A stretch of DNA of 64,000 bases from an uncultured Staphylococcaceae bacterium (GTDB lineage Bacteria; Bacillota_I; Bacilli_A; ML615J-28; CAG-313), in contig CAYPEY010000004.1 in NCBI GenBank assembly GCA_964409955.1, positions 1,569-65,568 on the forward strand, written 5' to 3'. The notes beneath the pieces are model-generated. The model was given only the letters and a program-made list of their open reading frames with translations, searched no databases and was not told the DNA's origin. How positions within the stretch are numbered: the first letter of the stretch is position 1; every line of letters begins with the position of its first letter. Both the position numbers and the translations under genes were made by a program. Below are positions 8,876-17,378 of the stretch, one piece after another.

Positions 8876-9307
8876 ATGAAAATTTTAATAATTAATGGAC
8901 CAAATTTAAATTTCTTAGGGATTCGTGAACCCCAAGTTTACGGTCACTTGACATACAATGACTTAAAAGATTATCTATCAAATGAAGCAAAAAAATTAAA
9001 CCTTGAAATTGAAATTTACCAATCAAATCACGAAGGTTCTATTATCGATAAACTTCAAGAAGCATACTATAACAAAGTTGATGGCATAGTAATTAATGCT
9101 GGAGCATACACTCACTATTCTTATGCTATCCTTGATGCAATCAAATCAACAATGATACCAACAATTGAAGTTCACTTATCAGATATCACTAAAAGAGAAT
9201 CTTTTAGAGCTAACTCTGTAATAAGAGATGCTTGCATTGCTTCATACTACGGAAAAGGTTTTGAAAGTTATAAAGAATCTTTAATTCATTTTAAAAATCA
9301 TTTATAA
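8876..9307 (+). CDS. aroQ: Type II 3-dehydroquinate dehydratase
   Basis: MKILIINGPNLNFLGIREPQVYG...QSNHEG...INAGAYTHYS...EVHLSDI is the canonical type II DHQase pattern. Confidence 0.9.
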   Translation: MKILIINGPNLNFLGIREPQVYGHLTYNDLKDYLSNEAKKLNLEIEIYQSNHEGSIIDKLQEAYYNKVDGIVINAGAYTHYSYAILDAIKSTMIPTIEVHLSDITKRESFRANSVIRDACIASYYGKGFESYKESLIHFKNHL

Positions 9308-9315
9308 AAACAAAA

Positions 9316-9351
9316 GCAATAACACAATTTAAAAAGTGTTATTGCTTTTTT
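9316..9351 (+). terminator. Intrinsic terminator after aroQ (potentially bidirectional)
   Basis: The stem gcaataacac/gtgttattgc has a 10-nt loop, followed by TTTTTT. An A-run on the other side could serve the convergent minus-strand genes. Confidence 0.7.
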
Positions 9352-9359
9352 ACATCTAC

Positions 9360-9893
9360 TTAATTAAAAATGTTAATAATTTTAATCTTTTTATTTTTTG
9401 AGCTAAATACTTCTGTTTTACAACCATCCAACATTTTCGTAAACAAATTGATTATAACAAATTTCTTACTATAATACTTTCGATAATATTCTATAGCATT
9501 ACCCATGAATTTTTCAATATTTCTAGAGTATTCAGTTTCTCCATAATCATGAAATAAATAAATTTTGTCGTCTTCTATTTTAAAAGTACTATCTAAATAT
9601 ACTTTTAACGTATCTATATTTACTAATTCATCTATTTCAAAAATCTCATACGCATTACCATTGCTACAAGCATAAAACAAAATATAATTTCTTGTATACA
9701 TAAAATATCTTATTATTAGCAAAACAAAGATAATTGTAAACGCAATTATTAATCCTATTTTTTTAAAGTTAGAAAAAGGTGCAAATAATGCTATAAATAA
9801 ACAACAAAAAGCAAAATATCCAATATAATTAACTAGATAAAGCGTCCTAGTATTTGATATATAATTTTCATTTTTTACGTTATAATATTTCAT
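9360..9893 (-). CDS. Hypothetical two-TM membrane protein; candidate immunity protein for the orphan RHS tip
   Basis: The ATG at 9891-9893 lies 2 nt after the orphan toxin's TAA stop. There are two hydrophobic helices (YLVNYIGYFAFCCLFIALFAPF, IGLIIAFTIIFVLLIIRYFMY). No family was recognised. Confidence 0.45.
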   Translation of the reverse strand: MKYYNVKNENYISNTRTLYLVNYIGYFAFCCLFIALFAPFSNFKKIGLIIAFTIIFVLLIIRYFMYTRNYILFYACSNGNAYEIFEIDELVNIDTLKVYLDSTFKIEDDKIYLFHDYGETEYSRNIEKFMGNAIEYYRKYYSKKFVIINLFTKMLDGCKTEVFSSKNKKIKIINIFN

Positions 9894-9895
9894 TA

Positions 9896-10500
9896 TTAGT
9901 TTGTACCTCCAAAAATTTGACATACGCACTCCCAAGTAGTCATTATTCCTTGAGAAATCGCTTTAACCATTGCACTTGCTGTTTCATCACTTAAAGGATT
10001 AACTCCTAAAAGTTGCGACAATCCAAATGTCATAAGACCTTTAGTAATATCAATCGCAAAGGCTTCCATAGTAGATTTACCCATAATATCAGCATCATAA
10101 TCTTCTATTCCTAATACACTATTCACACCTATTTTTATCATATTACCTATTGTAGTACTTAAAAGTCCTAAATAAGGAACAGGTGATATAAAACCACTAC
10201 AGTATTACCAACATATTCACCAAATGTTGTTGATTGCTCTTCATCTGTAATATCTTCTATAGCAGTTGTTAATATACTTATAGCTGCAGAGACACACATT
10301 ATTGTAAGTAATACTGGCCAATTTCCATTATCATCTGCAAACATCACCGGATTACTATTACAATATAAGAATAAATTCATTCCATTAAATAATGTTATAT
10401 CTAAATATTCTACATCATCTTGAGATAGCCATCTAAACATATATGGTGAATAATATCTTGCATTACAGTAATAAAAATTAGATTCAACGTCATAATCTTG
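9896..10500 (-). pseudogene. Orphan (displaced) RHS C-terminal toxin cassette, split by a frameshift
   Basis: The translation begins ...DYDVESNFYYCNARYYSP, matching the core end of the main RHS gene (47/51 nt identical to 11821-11871). It then diverges (NLFLYCNSNPVMFADDNGNWP plus a TM helix). The reading frame switches to -1 somewhere within 10171-10204, joining track ORFs 10168-10440 and 9896-10141. There is no upstream ATG or SD. Confidence 0.65.
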
Positions 10501-10620
10501 ATTATCCCTCTATAAATATATAATGTGTTAGTTATTTGAACTAGGTATCCTAGTCAAATATAGATAAGCGTGCAACACAATTTGTGATGCAAAGTGATGC
10601 ACGCTTTATCCTGTTTACAA

Positions 10621-11058
10621 TTATTTAATTATTTGTTCGATTTTATTATCTTTTAATATTTTTTCGAACTCATCTTTATATCTTGTATTAATCAAAACTT
10701 TTTTGTCCTTTATGAACAAATTAAATTGGTAGAATACAGATTTCCTATATCTGTTACATGTATATTTTTTAACATCACATATATTAAGCTCTATCCTTTT
10801 AAATAAAGTTTTTAAATAAACTCTTTCACTATCAAACTCAACTCTATATTTAATAGCATATAGCCATCCATATAAACCGATTGTTCCAAACATAACCCAT
10901 GCAATTGCGAACAAAATAATATCTTTATCACTATATTTATCGTTATTCATTAAATAAATAGACAAAGGCATTAATATTGCAAAAATATATCCAAAAATCA
11001 TAATATTTCTAAATGGTTTGCCTTCTTTTTTCATTCCGTCAATTATTCTATTATCCAT
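10621..11058 (-). CDS. Hypothetical two-TM membrane protein; candidate immunity protein for the main RHS toxin
   Basis: It starts 14 nt after the RHS stop with a GGGAGGA SD. It has two TM helices (IMIFGYIFAILMPLSIYLM, IILFAIAWVMFGTIGLYGWLYAI) and a basic soluble tail. Confidence 0.5.
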   Translation of the reverse strand: MDNRIIDGMKKEGKPFRNIMIFGYIFAILMPLSIYLMNNDKYSDKDIILFAIAWVMFGTIGLYGWLYAIKYRVEFDSERVYLKTLFKRIELNICDVKKYTCNRYRKSVFYQFNLFIKDKKVLINTRYKDEFEKILKDNKIEQIIK

Positions 11059-11072
11059 AATTTCCTCCCAGT

Positions 11073-11705
11073 TTAGTTAAAAATATCAACCAATAATATT
11101 ACACAGGTAGCAGCACCCGCAAGCGCTCTAGCGCCCGGCATTGGTATTGCTGCAATCCCTGCACATACAAGGTATGCTCCAGCAATAGTACCCCACCCTA
11201 CATTTGCAGTAATTTCTTGAGTAGTATTACCAGAAATTGTGCCAAATGAGAAAGAAATACCATCTTGCAAACTAATTTCTGCTCCATAAGTAATCCATGG
11301 TGTCAATTGCATACTAGTACCAAATCCAATGTTTGATGAAACATAAGCACTAATTCCATACCAATTTCCTAAATTCATTCCAACCCCAGCACTATATCCT
11401 CCATTACCTATATTACTATAAGAATAAAACATTTCTGAATCGTTCAATTGAGTTGTTATGGTATAAGAAATATTACCAAAGAAAGATCCAATAAAAGCAT
11501 TTTCAATCAACGAAGTAGTATAGTGTGTCATTTCAACAGAATTCGCTTTAGGCCAATTAATGCTACCAAAACTTGATCCACCTAATGATCCAAAACCACT
11601 AACTTTTGACCCTACAACTACACTTCCGCTTCCAACAATATTACTAAATGTTCCTCTTGTAGAACCAATCATTCCACCACTAGACAATCCACTAACATTT
11701 GAACT
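11073..11705 (-). other. C-terminal variable (toxin) domain of the RHS protein, about 210 aa, unrecognised family
   Basis: The region after NNPIGIVYSS is Gly/Ser-rich with alternating aromatic and small residues (GISAYVSSNIGFGTSMQLTPWITYGAEISLQDGISFSFGTISG). It ends in a hydrophobic segment, GTIAGAYLVCAGIAAIPMPGARALAGAATCVILLV. Confidence 0.5.
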
Positions 11706-14700
11706 ACTATATACAATTCCAATTGGATTATTTTTCGCATAACTATATAGATTTAGTCCATTAATAGATTGTGGATTTAAACTAGAAACATCTGCAGGTT
11801 GGATAAATCTTCCAAGTTCTGGTGAATAATATCTTGCATTACAATAATAAAAATTAGATTCAGTGTCGTAATAATAACCTTTATATCTATATGGATTAAT
11901 ATTAGCTATGGTTGTTCCTTCTAAATTCATTGCTTCCGAAATAGTTTCCCCATATGCTGTATAAGTATATCTAGCAACAAGTTCTCCTGATGAATCTACT
12001 ATATATTCTATATCACCAAGTAAATTTGTTATGTAATAATATATGTTACTTACACTGTTTTGAGTTAGTTTAAATCCTATTAAATTGTTATTATCATAAA
12101 TATATTCTATTGTTTTGTCAGTATGGATTTCACCTATTAAAAGATTATCCATATATACATATTCTATCACATCATATTGATTAGTTGAAGAATTATACAC
12201 TTCTTTTTTTACTCTTCTATCCATTGCATCATATGTATATTTGTATAAATAATATCCTTCATCATCATCATATAATCCTACGAAGTTACTACCTTCATAC
12301 ACGTAAATATAATCATGATAAGAATAAATTCTATTTGCGGAATCATATGTATAATATGTTGTATCACCATTATGCCTTATACTTGTTATTTTTGTTTTGT
12401 TATTTGAATCATATGTAGCTCCAACTTCTACAGATAAATCACCGTATTCTTCACTCTTATTATATCTTTCAATTGCTGTAAGATTTCCTAAACTATCATA
12501 ATAATACGTTGCCTTAAATACATACATTGAAGCATTTCCTGATGCATCTTTTTCCGTTCCAACAAATTCTGTTTTTAACTGATTATACTCATCATAAGTA
12601 TAATCATATACTCGAAAATGAATAGGTAAAACACCTGTTAAATCTTCTACTTCTCTTGTTTTTTGACTAACATTACCCATCACATCATATTTATATTCAT
12701 ATGTTATTCTATATTGTTCAGTATTTATTACTTCTTTAGATATTCTATTAGACGTAAAATTATTATCATATATACTTTGATTTGAATTATTCATATTATC
12801 ACTTGAAAAATATGTATAATCATACGTTATTATATTTTCATATGACACTGTATCAATAATCTTCTTTTGTGTAATTCTTCCAAGTGAATCAGTTATATTT
12901 TGAGTTCTTATATCTAAATAAGTGTTTTCAAAATAATATAAAACATTATCACTATTATATACATAATCTAAGTCGCTTGTTATTCCATTTATATTATATG
13001 TTATACCAGATAACATATTATCATCATCATAATCATATTGTATTTCATTACCAATACTATCTTTAGAAAGAAGTAAATTTCCATTTAAATCATATGTATA
13101 AGTATAATTAATTCCATTAATTCTATCATATACAACTGATAAATTTCCCATTTCATCATATAAATAATCATTATGTATAAAGTATTCATTAGTAGCTATA
13201 TCTTGTTCATAATAATAATCTAATTTTAAATCATCATCATATCCATAATGAATAACATACTGATTTCCATATGTTGCATTTGCAAGTAATCCCGTATATA
13301 TACTTTCATAACTATAGCCATTATAATAATTGTAATTATGATAATCATATTCAACAATAACATTATAAGTTCCAGTAGATGAGCTTCTTTCTGATATCTT
13401 TAGTATATCTCCATATACATTATATTCAAATTTATACTGAATAAAATCTGAACTAGACCCCATCTTTATTGTATCTACATAACCTTCATCATTATATGTA
13501 TAATTAATTTGTCTACTCGCAAGCGATATTTCATTTAATCTTAATAAACTATCATATGTATAGCTAATTACTTTATTATTAGCATTAGTTATAGAATTTA
13601 ATACACCGTTTGCTTCATTGTAATCATATAATGTAGTCACATCATATTCATCTATAAAAGCTTCTGTATACATATAATTTTCACTATATTGATACGAATT
13701 TAAATAATAACCAAGCGTATCATTACCAGTCAATATTTCAGTTACTACATCAATTCCAGTTATACCAAAATTTGTTACCTCTACATTTGAACTTGTATTA
13801 CTAAAAGAATTAATTTTATTTCCATTTATATCTTCCGTTAATGAAATATCATAAGTACTTGCGTCAACTTCTGTAATTTTATTATTTTCATCTCTTGTAA
13901 TAATAGTATTTTCATTAGATTTAGCAACCCCTATAACTTTACCATAATCATTATACTGATATTCAGTCATAGTTGGATTTTTATATAAAACTAAATTATC
14001 AATATAAATGCTATTTTTTCCAGAATTAGAAATAGATATTGTAGCTTGGTCCCAATAACTTTCTACCTCAAATGATTCTAATATATACTGATATCCTAAT
14101 ATATCATTTCGATATTTTATTGTATATATCGAACTACTTGTCAAATCAGTTGTATTATGAAGTTGTAATTTCATTTCAACATCTGAATTATTTGTTGAAA
14201 TATATCCACCAAACGAAATAAATTCTCCGTGATTTACAGATAAATTTATCGTTTTAGACATTGATGTTGCTGAACTTAATCTACCCTCTATATTTCCAAA
14301 TACATTTGAATAATTCCTTAAACATGCTATAACATTAGTCCAACCATTTGCAACTGAACCTCCTTCACTTCCTTCAAATGAATGATCATCGATATAATTA
14401 ATATTTGATGTATTAAAATCATTATGGGTCTCACTAAATCTTAAATTTTCAAAATATGATGTTGTATTATAAGTTGTTGAAAGCTCAATTACAATATCAT
14501 ATAACTCTTCTGAATAACCATTTACTGTAAAATTACAACTATATAGTTTATATTCATCATCTACTGAATTATAAGAAACATTACAATCAACATCAACATC
14601 AGCTAAATTCTTTGGATACACATTAATGTAACCACCATTAATAATCGTTTCATCATTACCAGTTGATTTAACATATCCATAAATTGTATACGATTTATAA

Positions 14701-17378
14701 CCATTTAACTTAATTACTTGCGAAACTTTCGGAGAATTAGTAGAGTTTCCATTTTTTATTTTTAATGCATAAAGCCCAAATAAATTTTCTGTTGTATCAA
14801 CATTAATAATGTTACCATTGCTATCATTTAAAATATTCCAATCACTAATTCCATCAATGGAATTATAAATTTCAAATCCGTTATTAATAATTTTATTATA
14901 CTTATTATTTATAGTATCCGTCTTATATAGCAATTTATTATTTAAATATGAATTACTACTATCATTTTCATATTTATAAAAATTAGCGTTACCTTTATCA
15001 TCATATACATTAATTACTTGTCCTGATGAATTAAATAAATAAGTTATCTCATTATTTAAATTATCCGTAAATATTGTTTTCTGAACATTATAACTAATTG
15101 TTACATTTGTAAGGTTTGTTGTTATGTCACTTCCATGAACTATTCTATTATAATAATTTATTACTTGTCGATAGTTTTCATCATAAACAAAATATAATTC
15201 ACTGTTATATGTAATATCACTACTTAAATCTTCAATAACTCCCGTCATATAATTGAATGTTTGATCTAAATCACTATCATAATACGTATGATAATCATAC
15301 CATGCAACTATATAACTTGTTGATGTTGTTGTATAATAAGTTAAATAATTTAAATTCAAATTACTATCATAATTATAAGCTATTTTTTTAGTAAAAGTTG
15401 TAGAATTACTAGATAAGTTTCTTGTAATAAGAATTTCTGTTAATAAATCATTTGTATATGTGAAATCAGCTTTATTTCCCATTGCGTCTATAATATAATC
15501 AATTACTTTTAGGCCACTTGATGTTGTTGCATGTGAAATGCTTACATATTCAGTATTATTCTCATCTAACATTTCGATTTTTGTTAAGTATCCTAAATTA
15601 TTATAATAATAAACTATTTCGCTATTTACAACTCTTTTATAATATTCATTACTGCTTGAAGAATTTATAGTAATTACAGAATCTGCTCCATCTTCACTAA
15701 TATAATGATCAACATCATCTATAACCTTTAATTTATGATACATTACATTTCCTGTAGAATCTATCAAGCAATAATAATTAGAGGTTGTAAGTCCCGTAAT
15801 AGATGTCGGCGATTCAATTTTTTCACTATAGTTACTTCGCCACCCATTTCCATAACCGATATTTTCATTTGAACTAACACTATTATAATAAAATGCTAAA
15901 TTAAATGAAGATCTTGCTGTATCATTAGTATAATCACTTCTTGCAACTACAAAATTTCCAGCAAAACTATTTAAATAAAAACATCCAGCACCACCCATAT
16001 CAACTTCTTGATAATTCCAATAATCTTTTATTCCTTTAACATCATAATAAGTCATACTAATAGAAGTTGCCCCAATAGATACATACTCTTCATTTAAACT
16101 AAAATCATATGGTGAAAATTCTAAATACATAAAATCATTAGATGCACTTTTTGCTACTTTTGTTATATTTGTATAAAACTTATTAGTTGTTCCAGAAACT
16201 TTTAAAGGTTTATCTATAAATTTTTTTGTATAGACAGTATTACCATTAATCGTATCATAATTTATATTTGATGTAATCTGATTTATACTTACTAAATACA
16301 TATTTGAAACATTTATTGTAGCAGTATTATACATAACAGCATTTGTAATTATTACATCTTTTGGAAGTTCTGATTTATCAATCTTCATAATTACGTATTT
16401 TGAGATATCAGTACCGTTATCATCATATTTTTGTAATTTAAAAGTTGTAGCTGTAGTTGTTAACGTTTTTGTTATTTGCTTATACTCTATTTTAGTTGGA
16501 CTTGTATTTAAAGTATATGTTACAGTTGGATCTATAACAACAGGATATGTTGCTAGTTCTAACCAACTTGATGATGGAGTAATTGTTATTAAATATTCAT
16601 TGTTCTTAATTAATTCTACATTCATTTCTATATCATAACTAATATTTCCATCTGAATCATACATAAAATATTTATCAATTCTATATATTAATTCATTATT
16701 ATCATTATAGAAATCAATACTTGATGTAGTTTCTACTAATGTTAAGTTAGTAATTGATAATGTATAACTAAAAGAAAAATCTTTAATATATTTATTTATA
16801 ATGATATTTTCTTTTAAAGATCTACTATCTGTTATGAGTTCTAAATCAACATTATCAAATATATCAGTATACATTACTTTTCCAACAAGATGGTTTAGAT
16901 TACTTCTATCTGTTTTGTCTTCAATAATCTTCGCTTCTACCTTATTAATACTGTTATATATTATTTCAATTTTAGTATTTTCATATTGTAATTTAATCTT
17001 TTTATTGGAATGAATTTTTTTTGGTATCTTTAATTTATAATCTATTGAAGCACTGTCTAATTCATTACCATTTTCTTCAAATGTTGAGTTAATCTCAACT
17101 AAATTATTAGATTCATCTAAATAATGAACAGGTCTATTATAGATATAACTTTCATATAAGTTATCACTTTTTTTATATACTTTACCATATTCAGATCTAT
17201 CAGTAGTTATCTCACCTATTACATCATCGTTTGGATCATAATAATCTTTATTTAATACTATTTCTTCTGTATTTTTAGAATAGATACCATCCTCAGCAAA
17301 TAATTTAACAAACGGAAAGTTTGCAAATATATTGACAAAGATACTTAATGTTATAAGAATACCTATTGTTCTTTTCAT
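11073..17378 (-). CDS. Secreted RHS/YD-repeat polymorphic toxin (WapA-like), 2101 aa
   Basis: The N-terminal signal peptide is MKRTIGILITLSIFVNIFANFPFVKLFA. Two regions look like carbohydrate-binding modules (NNGFEIYNS...W; HSFEGSEGG...NGW). Dozens of YD repeats follow (YxYDxxGNL type, e.g. YTYDLNGNLL, YTYDAMDRRV). The RHS core end is YDTESNFYYCNARYYSPELGRFIQPADV...NLYSYAKNNPIG. Confidence 0.9.
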   Translation of the reverse strand: MKRTIGILITLSIFVNIFANFPFVKLFAEDGIYSKNTEEIVLNKDYYDPNDDVIGEITTDRSEYGKVYKKSDNLYESYIYNRPVHYLDESNNLVEINSTFEENGNELDSASIDYKLKIPKKIHSNKKIKLQYENTKIEIIYNSINKVEAKIIEDKTDRSNLNHLVGKVMYTDIFDNVDLELITDSRSLKENIIINKYIKDFSFSYTLSITNLTLVETTSSIDFYNDNNELIYRIDKYFMYDSDGNISYDIEMNVELIKNNEYLITITPSSSWLELATYPVVIDPTVTYTLNTSPTKIEYKQITKTLTTTATTFKLQKYDDNGTDISKYVIMKIDKSELPKDVIITNAVMYNTATINVSNMYLVSINQITSNINYDTINGNTVYTKKFIDKPLKVSGTTNKFYTNITKVAKSASNDFMYLEFSPYDFSLNEEYVSIGATSISMTYYDVKGIKDYWNYQEVDMGGAGCFYLNSFAGNFVVARSDYTNDTARSSFNLAFYYNSVSSNENIGYGNGWRSNYSEKIESPTSITGLTTSNYYCLIDSTGNVMYHKLKVIDDVDHYISEDGADSVITINSSSSNEYYKRVVNSEIVYYYNNLGYLTKIEMLDENNTEYVSISHATTSSGLKVIDYIIDAMGNKADFTYTNDLLTEILITRNLSSNSTTFTKKIAYNYDSNLNLNYLTYYTTTSTSYIVAWYDYHTYYDSDLDQTFNYMTGVIEDLSSDITYNSELYFVYDENYRQVINYYNRIVHGSDITTNLTNVTISYNVQKTIFTDNLNNEITYLFNSSGQVINVYDDKGNANFYKYENDSSNSYLNNKLLYKTDTINNKYNKIINNGFEIYNSIDGISDWNILNDSNGNIINVDTTENLFGLYALKIKNGNSTNSPKVSQVIKLNGYKSYTIYGYVKSTGNDETIINGGYINVYPKNLADVDVDCNVSYNSVDDEYKLYSCNFTVNGYSEELYDIVIELSTTYNTTSYFENLRFSETHNDFNTSNINYIDDHSFEGSEGGSVANGWTNVIACLRNYSNVFGNIEGRLSSATSMSKTINLSVNHGEFISFGGYISTNNSDVEMKLQLHNTTDLTSSSIYTIKYRNDILGYQYILESFEVESYWDQATISISNSGKNSIYIDNLVLYKNPTMTEYQYNDYGKVIGVAKSNENTIITRDENNKITEVDASTYDISLTEDINGNKINSFSNTSSNVEVTNFGITGIDVVTEILTGNDTLGYYLNSYQYSENYMYTEAFIDEYDVTTLYDYNEANGVLNSITNANNKVISYTYDSLLRLNEISLASRQINYTYNDEGYVDTIKMGSSSDFIQYKFEYNVYGDILKISERSSSTGTYNVIVEYDYHNYNYYNGYSYESIYTGLLANATYGNQYVIHYGYDDDLKLDYYYEQDIATNEYFIHNDYLYDEMGNLSVVYDRINGINYTYTYDLNGNLLLSKDSIGNEIQYDYDDDNMLSGITYNINGITSDLDYVYNSDNVLYYFENTYLDIRTQNITDSLGRITQKKIIDTVSYENIITYDYTYFSSDNMNNSNQSIYDNNFTSNRISKEVINTEQYRITYEYKYDVMGNVSQKTREVEDLTGVLPIHFRVYDYTYDEYNQLKTEFVGTEKDASGNASMYVFKATYYYDSLGNLTAIERYNKSEEYGDLSVEVGATYDSNNKTKITSIRHNGDTTYYTYDSANRIYSYHDYIYVYEGSNFVGLYDDDEGYYLYKYTYDAMDRRVKKEVYNSSTNQYDVIEYVYMDNLLIGEIHTDKTIEYIYDNNNLIGFKLTQNSVSNIYYYITNLLGDIEYIVDSSGELVARYTYTAYGETISEAMNLEGTTIANINPYRYKGYYYDTESNFYYCNARYYSPELGRFIQPADVSSLNPQSINGLNLYSYAKNNPIGIVYSSSNVSGLSSGGMIGSTRGTFSNIVGSGSVVVGSKVSGFGSLGGSSFGSINWPKANSVEMTHYTTSLIENAFIGSFFGNISYTITTQLNDSEMFYSYSNIGNGGYSAGVGMNLGNWYGISAYVSSNIGFGTSMQLTPWITYGAEISLQDGISFSFGTISGNTTQEITANVGWGTIAGAYLVCAGIAAIPMPGARALAGAATCVILLVDIFN

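What the first reader, a model, noticed from the sequence alone, without database searches (positions are those of the whole stretch)
9360..10500. Displaced orphan RHS tip and immunity cassette, sharing a ~50-bp recombination handle with the main gene and interrupted by a -1 frame break
Positions 10445-10495 are 47/51 identical to 11821-11871 of the main rhs gene, which encodes YD(T/V)ESNFYYCNARYYSP. After this block the two sequences diverge completely. The orphan encodes a different tip (NSNPVMFADDNGNWP followed by a TM helix) and has no promoter-proximal ATG or SD. It is followed 2 nt after its stop by a 177-aa two-TM protein. This is the classic orphan toxin/immunity layout that permits tip switching by homologous recombination. 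The orphan reading frame also shifts to -1 within 10171-10204, near a T4 run at 10190-10193. The tip is therefore decayed, mis-sequenced, or dependent on frameshifting.
Basis: seen in the sequence. Interest (0 to 1): 0.6.

Follow-up and report, generated by a model that had tools for sequence, protein, structure and literature searches.

The report
Displaced, decayed RHS toxin tip cassette
This is a silent spare toxin tip with its antidote gene, pushed out of a giant RHS toxin gene when a small mobile tip-plus-antidote cassette inserted; the spare tip is broken by a one-base loss, and its edge carries a conserved recombinase-associated sequence shared by many related gut bacteria.

Summary
Positions 10445-10495 match 11821-11871 at 47/51. 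The orphan has no in-frame start. Its frame breaks by -1 at about 10190-10198. A 177-aa two-TM gene starts 2 nt after its stop.

The two fragments are one tip. They align collinearly, one residue apart, to intact homologues from two metagenomes, one of which is followed by a homologue of the immunity gene. The tip is therefore a pseudogene unless the indel is an assembly error. About half of comparable orphans in relatives are also truncated.

New here: the 25 nt 5' of the orphan (10484-10508) are a conserved stub, not RHS core. The stub occurs in 14 of 49 family genomes. In eight loci checked, three clades of TndX/TnpX-type large serine recombinase genes each end 12-35 nt before their own stub class. 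All stubs end at the same GA in the Glu codon of YD(V/T)E.

The 1376 bp between the two GAs (tip1, imm1, hairpin module, stub) form a recombinase-less mini-cassette. Two congeners carry the same cassette at 89% nt identity with the recombinase gene still attached.

The orphan is an ordinary kind of feature. The recombinase-linked route is unpublished in the library searched.

The parts
11073..17378 (-). Full-length Sec-type rhs gene (2101 aa). The tip1 cassette occupies its 3' end.
   Evidence: ORF. TIGR03696 at residues 1806-1888, E 1e-16, and YD repeat. Weak Pfam RHS hits.
11860..11861 (-). GA of the Glu codon in YDTE: proposed left crossover (attL) of cassette 1.
   Evidence: Near-identity with the orphan starts exactly here: 40/42 to the right, 12/30 to the left. 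The same GA ends all three stub classes.
11820..11859 (-). Handle copy 1 (ESNFYYCNARYYSP), 39/40 identical to 10444-10483.
   Evidence: The variant is unique to this locus.
10621..11058 (-). imm1, membrane immunity gene of tip1.
   Evidence: 49% identical to the gene after the tip1-like orphan in L036. Lies within the 89% nt block shared with G009 and G003.
10509..10620 (-). Module B: conserved intergenic module with two hairpins (10562-10611 and 10533-10560). In congeners it lies between imm1 and the recombinase gene.
   Evidence: Fold -33.4 kcal/mol, z -5.5. Homologous modules occur in other genomes, with compensatory changes in hairpin 2. G009 and G003 continue from here into the recombinase SD and ATG. 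No Rfam family.
10484..10508 (-). Class-1 stub GGGATAATCAAGATTATGACGTT-GA: conserved right end of cassette 1, ending in the proposed attR crossover GA (10484-10485).
   Evidence: Single match in the window, 0 expected. Exact 20-mer in 14 of 49 family genomes against 1 control hit. 27 stretches among 185,579 species, nearly all the same gut lineage. Directly follows clade-1 recombinase genes.
10318..10483 (-). Orphan's remnant of the RHS core end: handle copy 2 and the core-end motif through DDNGNW.
   Evidence: TIGR03696 positions 22-75, E 3e-13. tblastn 54% to the main gene.
10196..10317 (-). Tip2, first part: TM helix and the conserved GEYVGNTV block.
   Evidence: Aligns to P0004 residues 94-143. 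TM at residues 62-85.
10190..10198 (-). Frame break: one base missing relative to intact homologues.
   Evidence: No canonical slippery heptamer (sequence).
9896..10195 (-). Tip2, second part, in the -1 frame, with its stop codon.
   Evidence: Hits P0003 (E 2e-10) and P0004 (E 2e-7) among 1.84 billion representatives.
9360..9893 (-). imm2, intact 177-aa two-TM orphan immunity gene.
   Evidence: 31% identical (E 5e-10) to the gene after the intact tip homologue in L011. TM segments.
9306..9351 (.). Hairpin between imm2 and the convergent aroQ gene, likely a bidirectional terminator. This is the end of the array, and no stub follows.
   Evidence: Inverted repeat in the sequence. Only spurious hairpin-type Rfam hits here. 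aroQ and aroC identified downstream.

Best explanation
The rhs gene originally ended in tip2, followed by imm2. A small mobile cassette then inserted into the Glu codon of the conserved YD(T/V)E motif. The cassette carried a handle, tip1, imm1, a hairpin module, a TndX/TnpX-type large serine recombinase gene and a roughly 24-nt right-end stub.

The insertion fused tip1 in frame to the core. It pushed tip2 and imm2 downstream as a start-less silent orphan, now preceded by the cassette's stub. The recombinase gene was later deleted, leaving a 1376-bp mini-cassette (11861 to 10484).

The silent tip2 has since lost one base and is a pseudogene. imm2 stays intact and most likely still protects against tip2-type toxins from neighbouring cells.

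Tip2 is a small helical domain with an N-terminal TM helix, paired with a two-TM immunity protein. It was therefore probably a membrane-acting toxin.

The 40-nt handle shared by main gene and orphan has been homogenised or used by homologous recombination in this lineage. It could still mediate deletion of cassette 1. So could the single clade-1 recombinase on contig C6, acting in trans. Either event would refuse a broken tip.

Shown: the anatomy, the homologies, the stub-recombinase linkage, and cassette sharing between species. Inferred: the direction of events, crossover at GA, imm2 function, and the toxin mechanism.
For: Orphan layout and frame break.

One collinear tip, with intact homologues P0003 and P0004 and a linked immunity homologue.

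Decay is the norm. 15 of 29 class-1 orphans are truncated, 11 of them within 100 codons.

Stub: unique in the window; present in 14 of 49 family genomes and 7 of 13 genera; restricted to this lineage among 185,579 species.

Recombinase linkage: the proteins carry Resolvase + Recombinase + Zn_ribbon_recom + DUF4368. Three clades each sit 12-35 nt before their own stub class, and every stub ends ...GTN-GA-AAC at the same codon, in 8 loci from 5 genomes. Stubs not followed by a tip diverge right after GTCGA. TndX cuts at GA dinucleotides (PMC3672683).

Cassette 1 is shared at 89% nt identity over 1364 nt with G009 and G003. Their rhs cores are only 46-62% identical at protein level, and in those genomes module B runs straight into a recombinase gene. 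A tip1/imm1 homologue sits as a stub-preceded orphan in another genus.

No stub follows imm2, and housekeeping genes come next.
Against: No reads could be examined, so the indel may be an assembly error.

No excision product, circle or empty site for this cassette has been seen.

The main gene's handle matches the orphan's, not the handle carried by the same cassette in G009 and G003. A simple GA crossover therefore cannot be the whole history. Homologous recombination or gene conversion must also have acted.

GA is a common dinucleotide, so the exact crossover point is inferred from divergence points only.

Tip2 was never seen fused to a full-length core. Only four copies exist in 5.8 billion protein clusters.

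The structure model of the tip is poor (pLDDT 45), so the toxin mechanism rests on TM content alone.
Confidence: 0.7

Rival explanations
1. Classical recombination-only displacement. Tip1 and imm1 arrived on foreign DNA or a circle and entered by RecA-dependent recombination in the shared handle. The stub is just an inherited relic of one ancient junction, and no site-specific recombinase was involved at this locus.
For: The 39/40 handle identity is specific to this locus and differs from the handle of the same cassette in congeners. That pattern is what Campbell-type homologous insertion or gene conversion predicts. There is no recombinase gene in the cassette. The stub resembles the core sequence AAGGATATTATTATGAT with a 4-nt difference.
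Against: Three different stub classes each follow their own recombinase clade and all end at the same GA. Stubs without tips break off right after GTCGA in several unrelated contexts. The same cassette still carries a recombinase gene in G009 and G003.
Confidence: 0.2
2. The frame break is a sequencing or assembly error. Tip2 is an intact reserve toxin that can be reactivated by deletion of cassette 1.
For: The break lies beside a short G/T run. The rest of both frames is open and well conserved against homologues. The genome is a 69-contig draft.
Against: Half of comparable orphans in other assemblies are also truncated, and another tip2 copy (P0006) is decayed. Single-base indels outside long homopolymers are uncommon in short-read assemblies (my own knowledge).
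Confidence: 0.12
3. The orphan is expressed on its own, through an internal start or programmed -1 frameshifting, and acts as an intracellular toxin-antitoxin-like module, as reported for the Salmonella rhs orphan.
For: There is a precedent for internal expression of Rhs orphans (PMC7043789, abstract only). Some stub-preceding modules in relatives carry a TGnTATAAT promoter.
Against: There is no in-frame start or SD before Met24, and no promoter-like site in module B. There is no X XXY YYZ slippery site at the break, and the homologues need no frameshift.
Confidence: 0.03

Closest known systems
Orphan rhs toxin/immunity modules of Enterobacteria (Poole et al. 2011, PMC3150448; Salmonella LT2 rhs-main/rhs-orphan, Koskiniemi et al. 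2014, PMC3967940) and Rhs C-terminal displacement (Jackson et al. 2009, from memory, not read here)
   Same: A start-less 3' core fragment with a different tip and its own immunity gene, lying downstream of a full-length rhs in the same orientation. A shared core-end block allows recombination that would refuse the orphan.
   Different: This is a Gram-positive-type, Sec-signal RHS with no T6SS. The homology block is only about 40-50 nt. The orphan's 5' edge is a fixed 25-nt stub shared across genera and linked to serine recombinase genes. The tip is broken.
Tn5397 (TndX) and Tn4451/Tn4453 (TnpX), clostridial elements moved by DUF4368-type large serine recombinases
   Same: The recombinases next to the stubs have the same domain set. 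The elements are delimited by GA dinucleotides, and the target resembles the element joint (PMC3672683).
   Different: Here the elements are 1.4-7 kb cassettes with no conjugation or resistance genes. They target one codon inside rhs genes and carry an in-frame toxin tip with its immunity gene. The window's copy has lost its recombinase. Recombination activity is untested.
rAID-1, recombinase-associated arrays of orphan immunity genes in Bacteroidales (Ross et al. 2019, from memory)
   Same: Stacked toxin-remnant and immunity cassettes with conserved junction sequences and a dedicated recombinase. Orphan immunity genes are kept as defence.
   Different: rAID uses a tyrosine recombinase and is not embedded in an active toxin gene. 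Here the recombinases are serine type and the array starts inside a functional rhs.
WapA/WapI of Bacillus subtilis (Koskiniemi et al. 2013, from memory) and membrane-acting tips such as Tse5 or TspA/TsaI
   Same: A Sec-dependent RHS/YD-repeat toxin of Bacillota with a polymorphic C-terminus and an adjacent immunity gene. A TM-containing tip is paired with a membrane immunity protein.
   Different: There is no sequence or confident structural similarity of tip2 or imm2 to any described family.

Membership tests
Orphan Rhs toxin/immunity module | Begins with a fragment homologous to the 3' end of the rhs core, including the core-end motif | tested here: met
   TIGR03696 positions 22-75 of 76, E 3e-13, 50 bits against a 32.5 cut-off. 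54% identical to the main gene over 50 aa.
Orphan Rhs toxin/immunity module | Lacks the N-terminal and core body and has no translation start of its own | tested here: met
   An in-frame stop lies 1 codon upstream of RDNQ. The first Met is residue 24, with no SD.
Orphan Rhs toxin/immunity module | Lies downstream of a full-length rhs plus immunity pair, in the same orientation | tested here: met
   ORF map.
Orphan Rhs toxin/immunity module | Distinct tip followed by a cognate immunity gene | tested here: met
   Tip2 is unrelated to tip1. The tip and immunity pair co-occurs in L011. Toxicity and protection were not tested.
Orphan Rhs toxin/immunity module | Nucleotide homology with the main gene sufficient for recombination | tested here: met
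   47/51, and 39/40 right of the GA. No recombinant was observed.
TndX/TnpX-type serine-recombinase element | Encodes a large serine recombinase with Resolvase, Recombinase, zinc ribbon and DUF4368 domains | tested here: not met
   There is none in the 1376-bp cassette of the window. One copy is on contig C6 of the same genome. The homologous cassettes in G009 and G003 carry one. Domains were confirmed on L035 copies.
TndX/TnpX-type serine-recombinase element | GA dinucleotide at both ends and at the target | tested here: inconclusive
   GA is present at 11860-11861 and 10484-10485, in the same codon phase. Identity and stub divergence points fall there. GA is frequent, however, and no cleavage data exist.
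TndX/TnpX-type serine-recombinase element | Excises as a circle and reinserts | not testable with these tools
Programmed -1 ribosomal frameshift site | Slippery heptamer X XXY YYZ with a downstream stimulator, conserved in homologues | tested here: not met
   The sequence at the break is GTA GTG GTT TTA. The homologues are in one frame.
Known toxin or immunity domain families (Pfam, NCBIfam) | Significant profile match for tip2 or imm2 | tested here: not met
   No hits above cut-off.

The most novel reading that the evidence does not exclude
The orphan's edge may be the footprint of an undescribed, family-wide toxin-swapping system. In this reading, at least three clades of TndX/TnpX-like serine recombinases, each with its own roughly 24-nt right end, carry promoterless tip-plus-immunity cassettes. 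The cassettes integrate at one GA inside the YD(V/T)E codons of rhs genes. This installs a new toxin in frame and stacks the old one as a silent orphan.

The window would then hold a recombinase-less mini-cassette. The genome's single clade-1 recombinase on contig C6 might still excise or move it in trans.

The stub is the core sequence with its outer AAGGATA block moved 4 nt outwards. This recalls the attP/attB zinc-ribbon-motif offset of serine integrases (PMC3783163).
Probability: 0.55. Interest if true: 0.75.

Novelty: new variant of a known kind. Interest (0 to 1): 0.5.

Why it matters
Orphan Rhs tips are usually explained by homologous recombination alone. This locus, read together with its relatives, gives sequence-level evidence that dedicated serine-recombinase cassettes deliver new toxin tips to a fixed codon and create the orphans.

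If confirmed, this explains how gut Bacillota diversify contact-dependent weapons quickly and build up immunity genes. It would also supply compact, codon-precise recombinase/site pairs.

For this particular orphan the practical message is modest. The toxin is probably dead, and the immunity gene is probably the selected part.

Tried and rejected
No read-level test of the indel, of excision joints or of subpopulations was possible.

**Searches that found nothing useful**
- Word-based search with imm2 found only itself.
- Tip2 is absent from all 49 family genomes.
- The metagenome scan with the tip alignment found nothing.
- Look-up of the window's own truncated ORF was withheld.
- Pfam and NCBIfam gave nothing for tip2 or imm2.
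- Rfam gave nothing for module B or for the related left block.

**Low-quality or spurious results**
- The AlphaFold model of the intact homologue was poor (pLDDT 45), so I ran no fold search.
- P0005 is a low-complexity repeat protein and was ignored.

**Ideas dropped**
- The palindrome ATAATC-AA-GATTAT as the crossover centre. The other two stub classes lack it, and all classes share only GTN-GA-AAC.
- The SD-like AAGGA plus ATG inside the stub as a start. The ATG is out of frame and opens only 9-30 codons.
- The stub boundary GAT|TAT as the breakpoint. The GA fits the stub-only sites better.
- Programmed frameshifting. There is no slippery site, and the homologues are unshifted.

Full report
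**Anatomy**

All features below lie on the minus strand. A 2101-aa rhs gene (11073-17378) is followed by a 145-aa membrane protein gene, imm1 (10621-11058). Next come a 112-nt spacer, two open frames that overlap at about 10171-10204, a 177-aa ORF (9360-9893), a hairpin, and then convergent aroQ and aroC genes. The main gene matches the RHS repeat-associated core domain at residues 1806-1888. The window is contig C4 of a 1.81-Mb, 28% GC, 69-contig genome. Record titles of relatives place the lineage among gut MAGs labelled Erysipelotrichaceae, Bacilli, Mollicutes or Coprobacillus.

**Checking the observation**

The 51-nt block is 47/51 identical. Downstream of it the nucleotides are unrelated (43/87). 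The orphan protein, however, still matches the core-end model to position 75 of 76 and the main gene at 54% over 50 aa. NSNPVMFADDNGNW is therefore the end of the core, not the start of the tip. There is no in-frame start before Met24, and the promoter scan lists nothing in the spacer. The 177-aa ORF starts 2 nt after the orphan stop and has two TM segments.

**One tip, broken once**

I searched 1.84 billion protein representatives with the second fragment. Besides the window's own ORF, the search returned two real relatives. P0004 is a 247-aa RHS C-terminus on a 1.2-kb JGI contig. P0003 is a 167-aa ORF on a Logan contig.

The first fragment aligns to P0004 residues 36-143 and the second aligns from residue 145. 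With an X at the break, all three sequences align end to end. One base is therefore missing in or beside one codon at 10190-10198. I did not restore it.

P0003 is followed by a gene 31% identical to the 177-aa ORF, so tip and immunity gene travel together. A profile search of 5.8 billion clusters added only one more copy, and it is decayed. No copy occurs in the 49 genomes of the family.

There is no slippery heptamer at the break, and the homologues are unshifted. Programmed frameshifting is therefore unlikely.

**The orphan's edge is a conserved stub**

The own genome holds at least four full-length rhs genes and about seven orphans. Five orphans begin with the identical sequence GATAATCAAGATTATGA. 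Full-length genes read AAAGGATATTATTATGAT at that position.

The 20-mer GATAATCAAGATTATGAYGT occurs in 14 of 49 family genomes from 7 of 13 genera, against one hit for the reversed control. Among 185,579 species genomes it occurs in only 27 stretches, nearly all from the same lineage. In the window it is unique.

Sequences upstream of the stub fall into a few conserved module types. Several loci carry the stub with no tip after it, and these diverge right after GTCGA.

**Link to serine recombinases**

On own contig C6, a 546-aa ORF ends 15 nt before a stub. A copy of this gene in another genus (98% protein identity) has Resolvase, Recombinase, zinc-ribbon and DUF4368 domains. This is the TndX/TnpX type, and TndX cuts at GA dinucleotides (PMC3672683).

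A family-wide search found such genes in 21 of 49 genomes. In eight loci from five genomes, three clades each sit 12-35 nt upstream of their own stub class:
- Class 1: AAGGATAATCAAGATTATGACGTC
- Class 2: GAGGATACTCGTGAGAGNCCCGTC
- Class 3: GAGGTTATATAAAAGAGTGATGTN

Every stub is followed by GA-AAC and an rhs handle at the same codon.

Earlier notes of this scan on other genomes had proposed insertion at a fixed GA. That made me test the GA, and my data agree. The library search found no paper that links serine recombinases with Rhs tips.

**The upstream cassette is mobile and has lost its recombinase**

Window 11897-10535 is 89% identical over 1364 nt to loci in two congeners, G009 and G003. 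This stretch covers the end of the core, tip1, imm1 and the hairpin part of the spacer. The rhs cores of those congeners are only 46-62% identical at protein level.

In both congeners the hairpin module runs straight into the SD and ATG of a recombinase gene. In the window it joins about 25 nt of leftover sequence and the stub. Another module type visibly keeps the last 24-35 nt of the clade-1 recombinase ORF.

A tip1/imm1 homologue (53% and 49% identical) also sits as a stub-preceded orphan in another genus. Tips therefore occupy both main and orphan positions. Because no stub follows imm2, tip2 and imm2 are best read as the original end of this rhs gene.

**Role of the shared handle**

Main gene and orphan are 40/42 identical right of the GA, and only 12/30 identical to its left. 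This handle variant (ESNFYYCNARYYSP) occurs nowhere else in my data. It differs from the handles of the same cassette in G009 and G003. Two other loci show the same locus-specific sharing.

A plain GA crossover does not explain this pattern. Homologous insertion or gene conversion must also have acted.

**Decay and likely function**

Of 29 class-1 orphans with an rhs handle, 15 stop before 200 codons, and 11 of those stop within 100 codons. Silent tips decay, while immunity genes can stay useful.

Tip2 has one TM helix and a helical remainder. The structure model is poor (pLDDT 45), and no profile matches. A membrane-acting toxin is the best guess.

Module B folds strongly (z -5.5), and its second hairpin shows compensatory changes. 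Its place between the immunity gene and the recombinase gene suggests a terminator or regulatory role.

**Verdict**

This is a real, ordinary orphan tip/immunity cassette, probably dead as a toxin. Its boundary adds evidence for an unpublished recombinase-borne route of Rhs tip exchange.

Noticed in passing
Own genome contigs C46 (reverse) + C6:1-4235; L035 (G030:C3:225000-240000): This is a recombinase-bearing version of the cassette. Its order is main rhs tip, immunity gene, a roughly 250-nt structured block with a TGGTATAAT promoter, HAD hydrolase, GNAT acetyltransferase, an HTH protein, a 546-aa DUF4368 serine recombinase, the stub, and a decayed orphan. The backbone is 91-94% nt identical between two genera, while the tips differ.
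   Followed up: partly
L011:1-1724 (Logan SRR15070237 contig): A group II intron-type reverse transcriptase ORF (RVT_1, weak GIIM) ends about 90 nt before the intact tip2 homologue, which starts at ...MYADPNGN. An intron may sit inside the rhs core end there.
   Followed up: no
window 10533-10611 (-); homologous modules in L013, L019, L020, L030, L032, L037, L062 and own C18:1230-1363: A conserved two-hairpin intergenic module begins ACAGGATAA. Its second hairpin is NNNGG(A/T)TA(T/C)CNNN with compensatory changes. There is no Rfam match and the function is unknown.
   Followed up: partly
Own C18:9-743; L036 8170-8877; L033; L047; L065: Second and third orphan junction classes (EDTRNSPVET and a GAGGTTATATAAAAGAGTGATGT type) are each tied to their own recombinase clade.
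   Followed up: partly
Stub versus core, e.g. window 10484-10508 versus 11860-11880: The stub reads like the core sequence AAGGATA..TTATGAYGTN-GA with the AAGGATA block moved 4 nt further from the GA. This resembles the 5-bp offset of the zinc-ribbon motif between attP and attB of a Listeria serine integrase (PMC3783163). This is an inference only.
   Followed up: no
L035 8081-12678: Two large ORFs (993 and 545 aa, the second with an N6-methylase-like YYTPYDLA motif) sit between two recombinase cassettes. They may be restriction-modification or defence cargo inside the rhs array.
   Followed up: no
L034 (G026:C6) 1665-2057: A module-B stub with no tip lies directly next to what looks like the ribosomal protein S20 gene. 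An array end can therefore abut housekeeping DNA with only the stub left.
   Followed up: no
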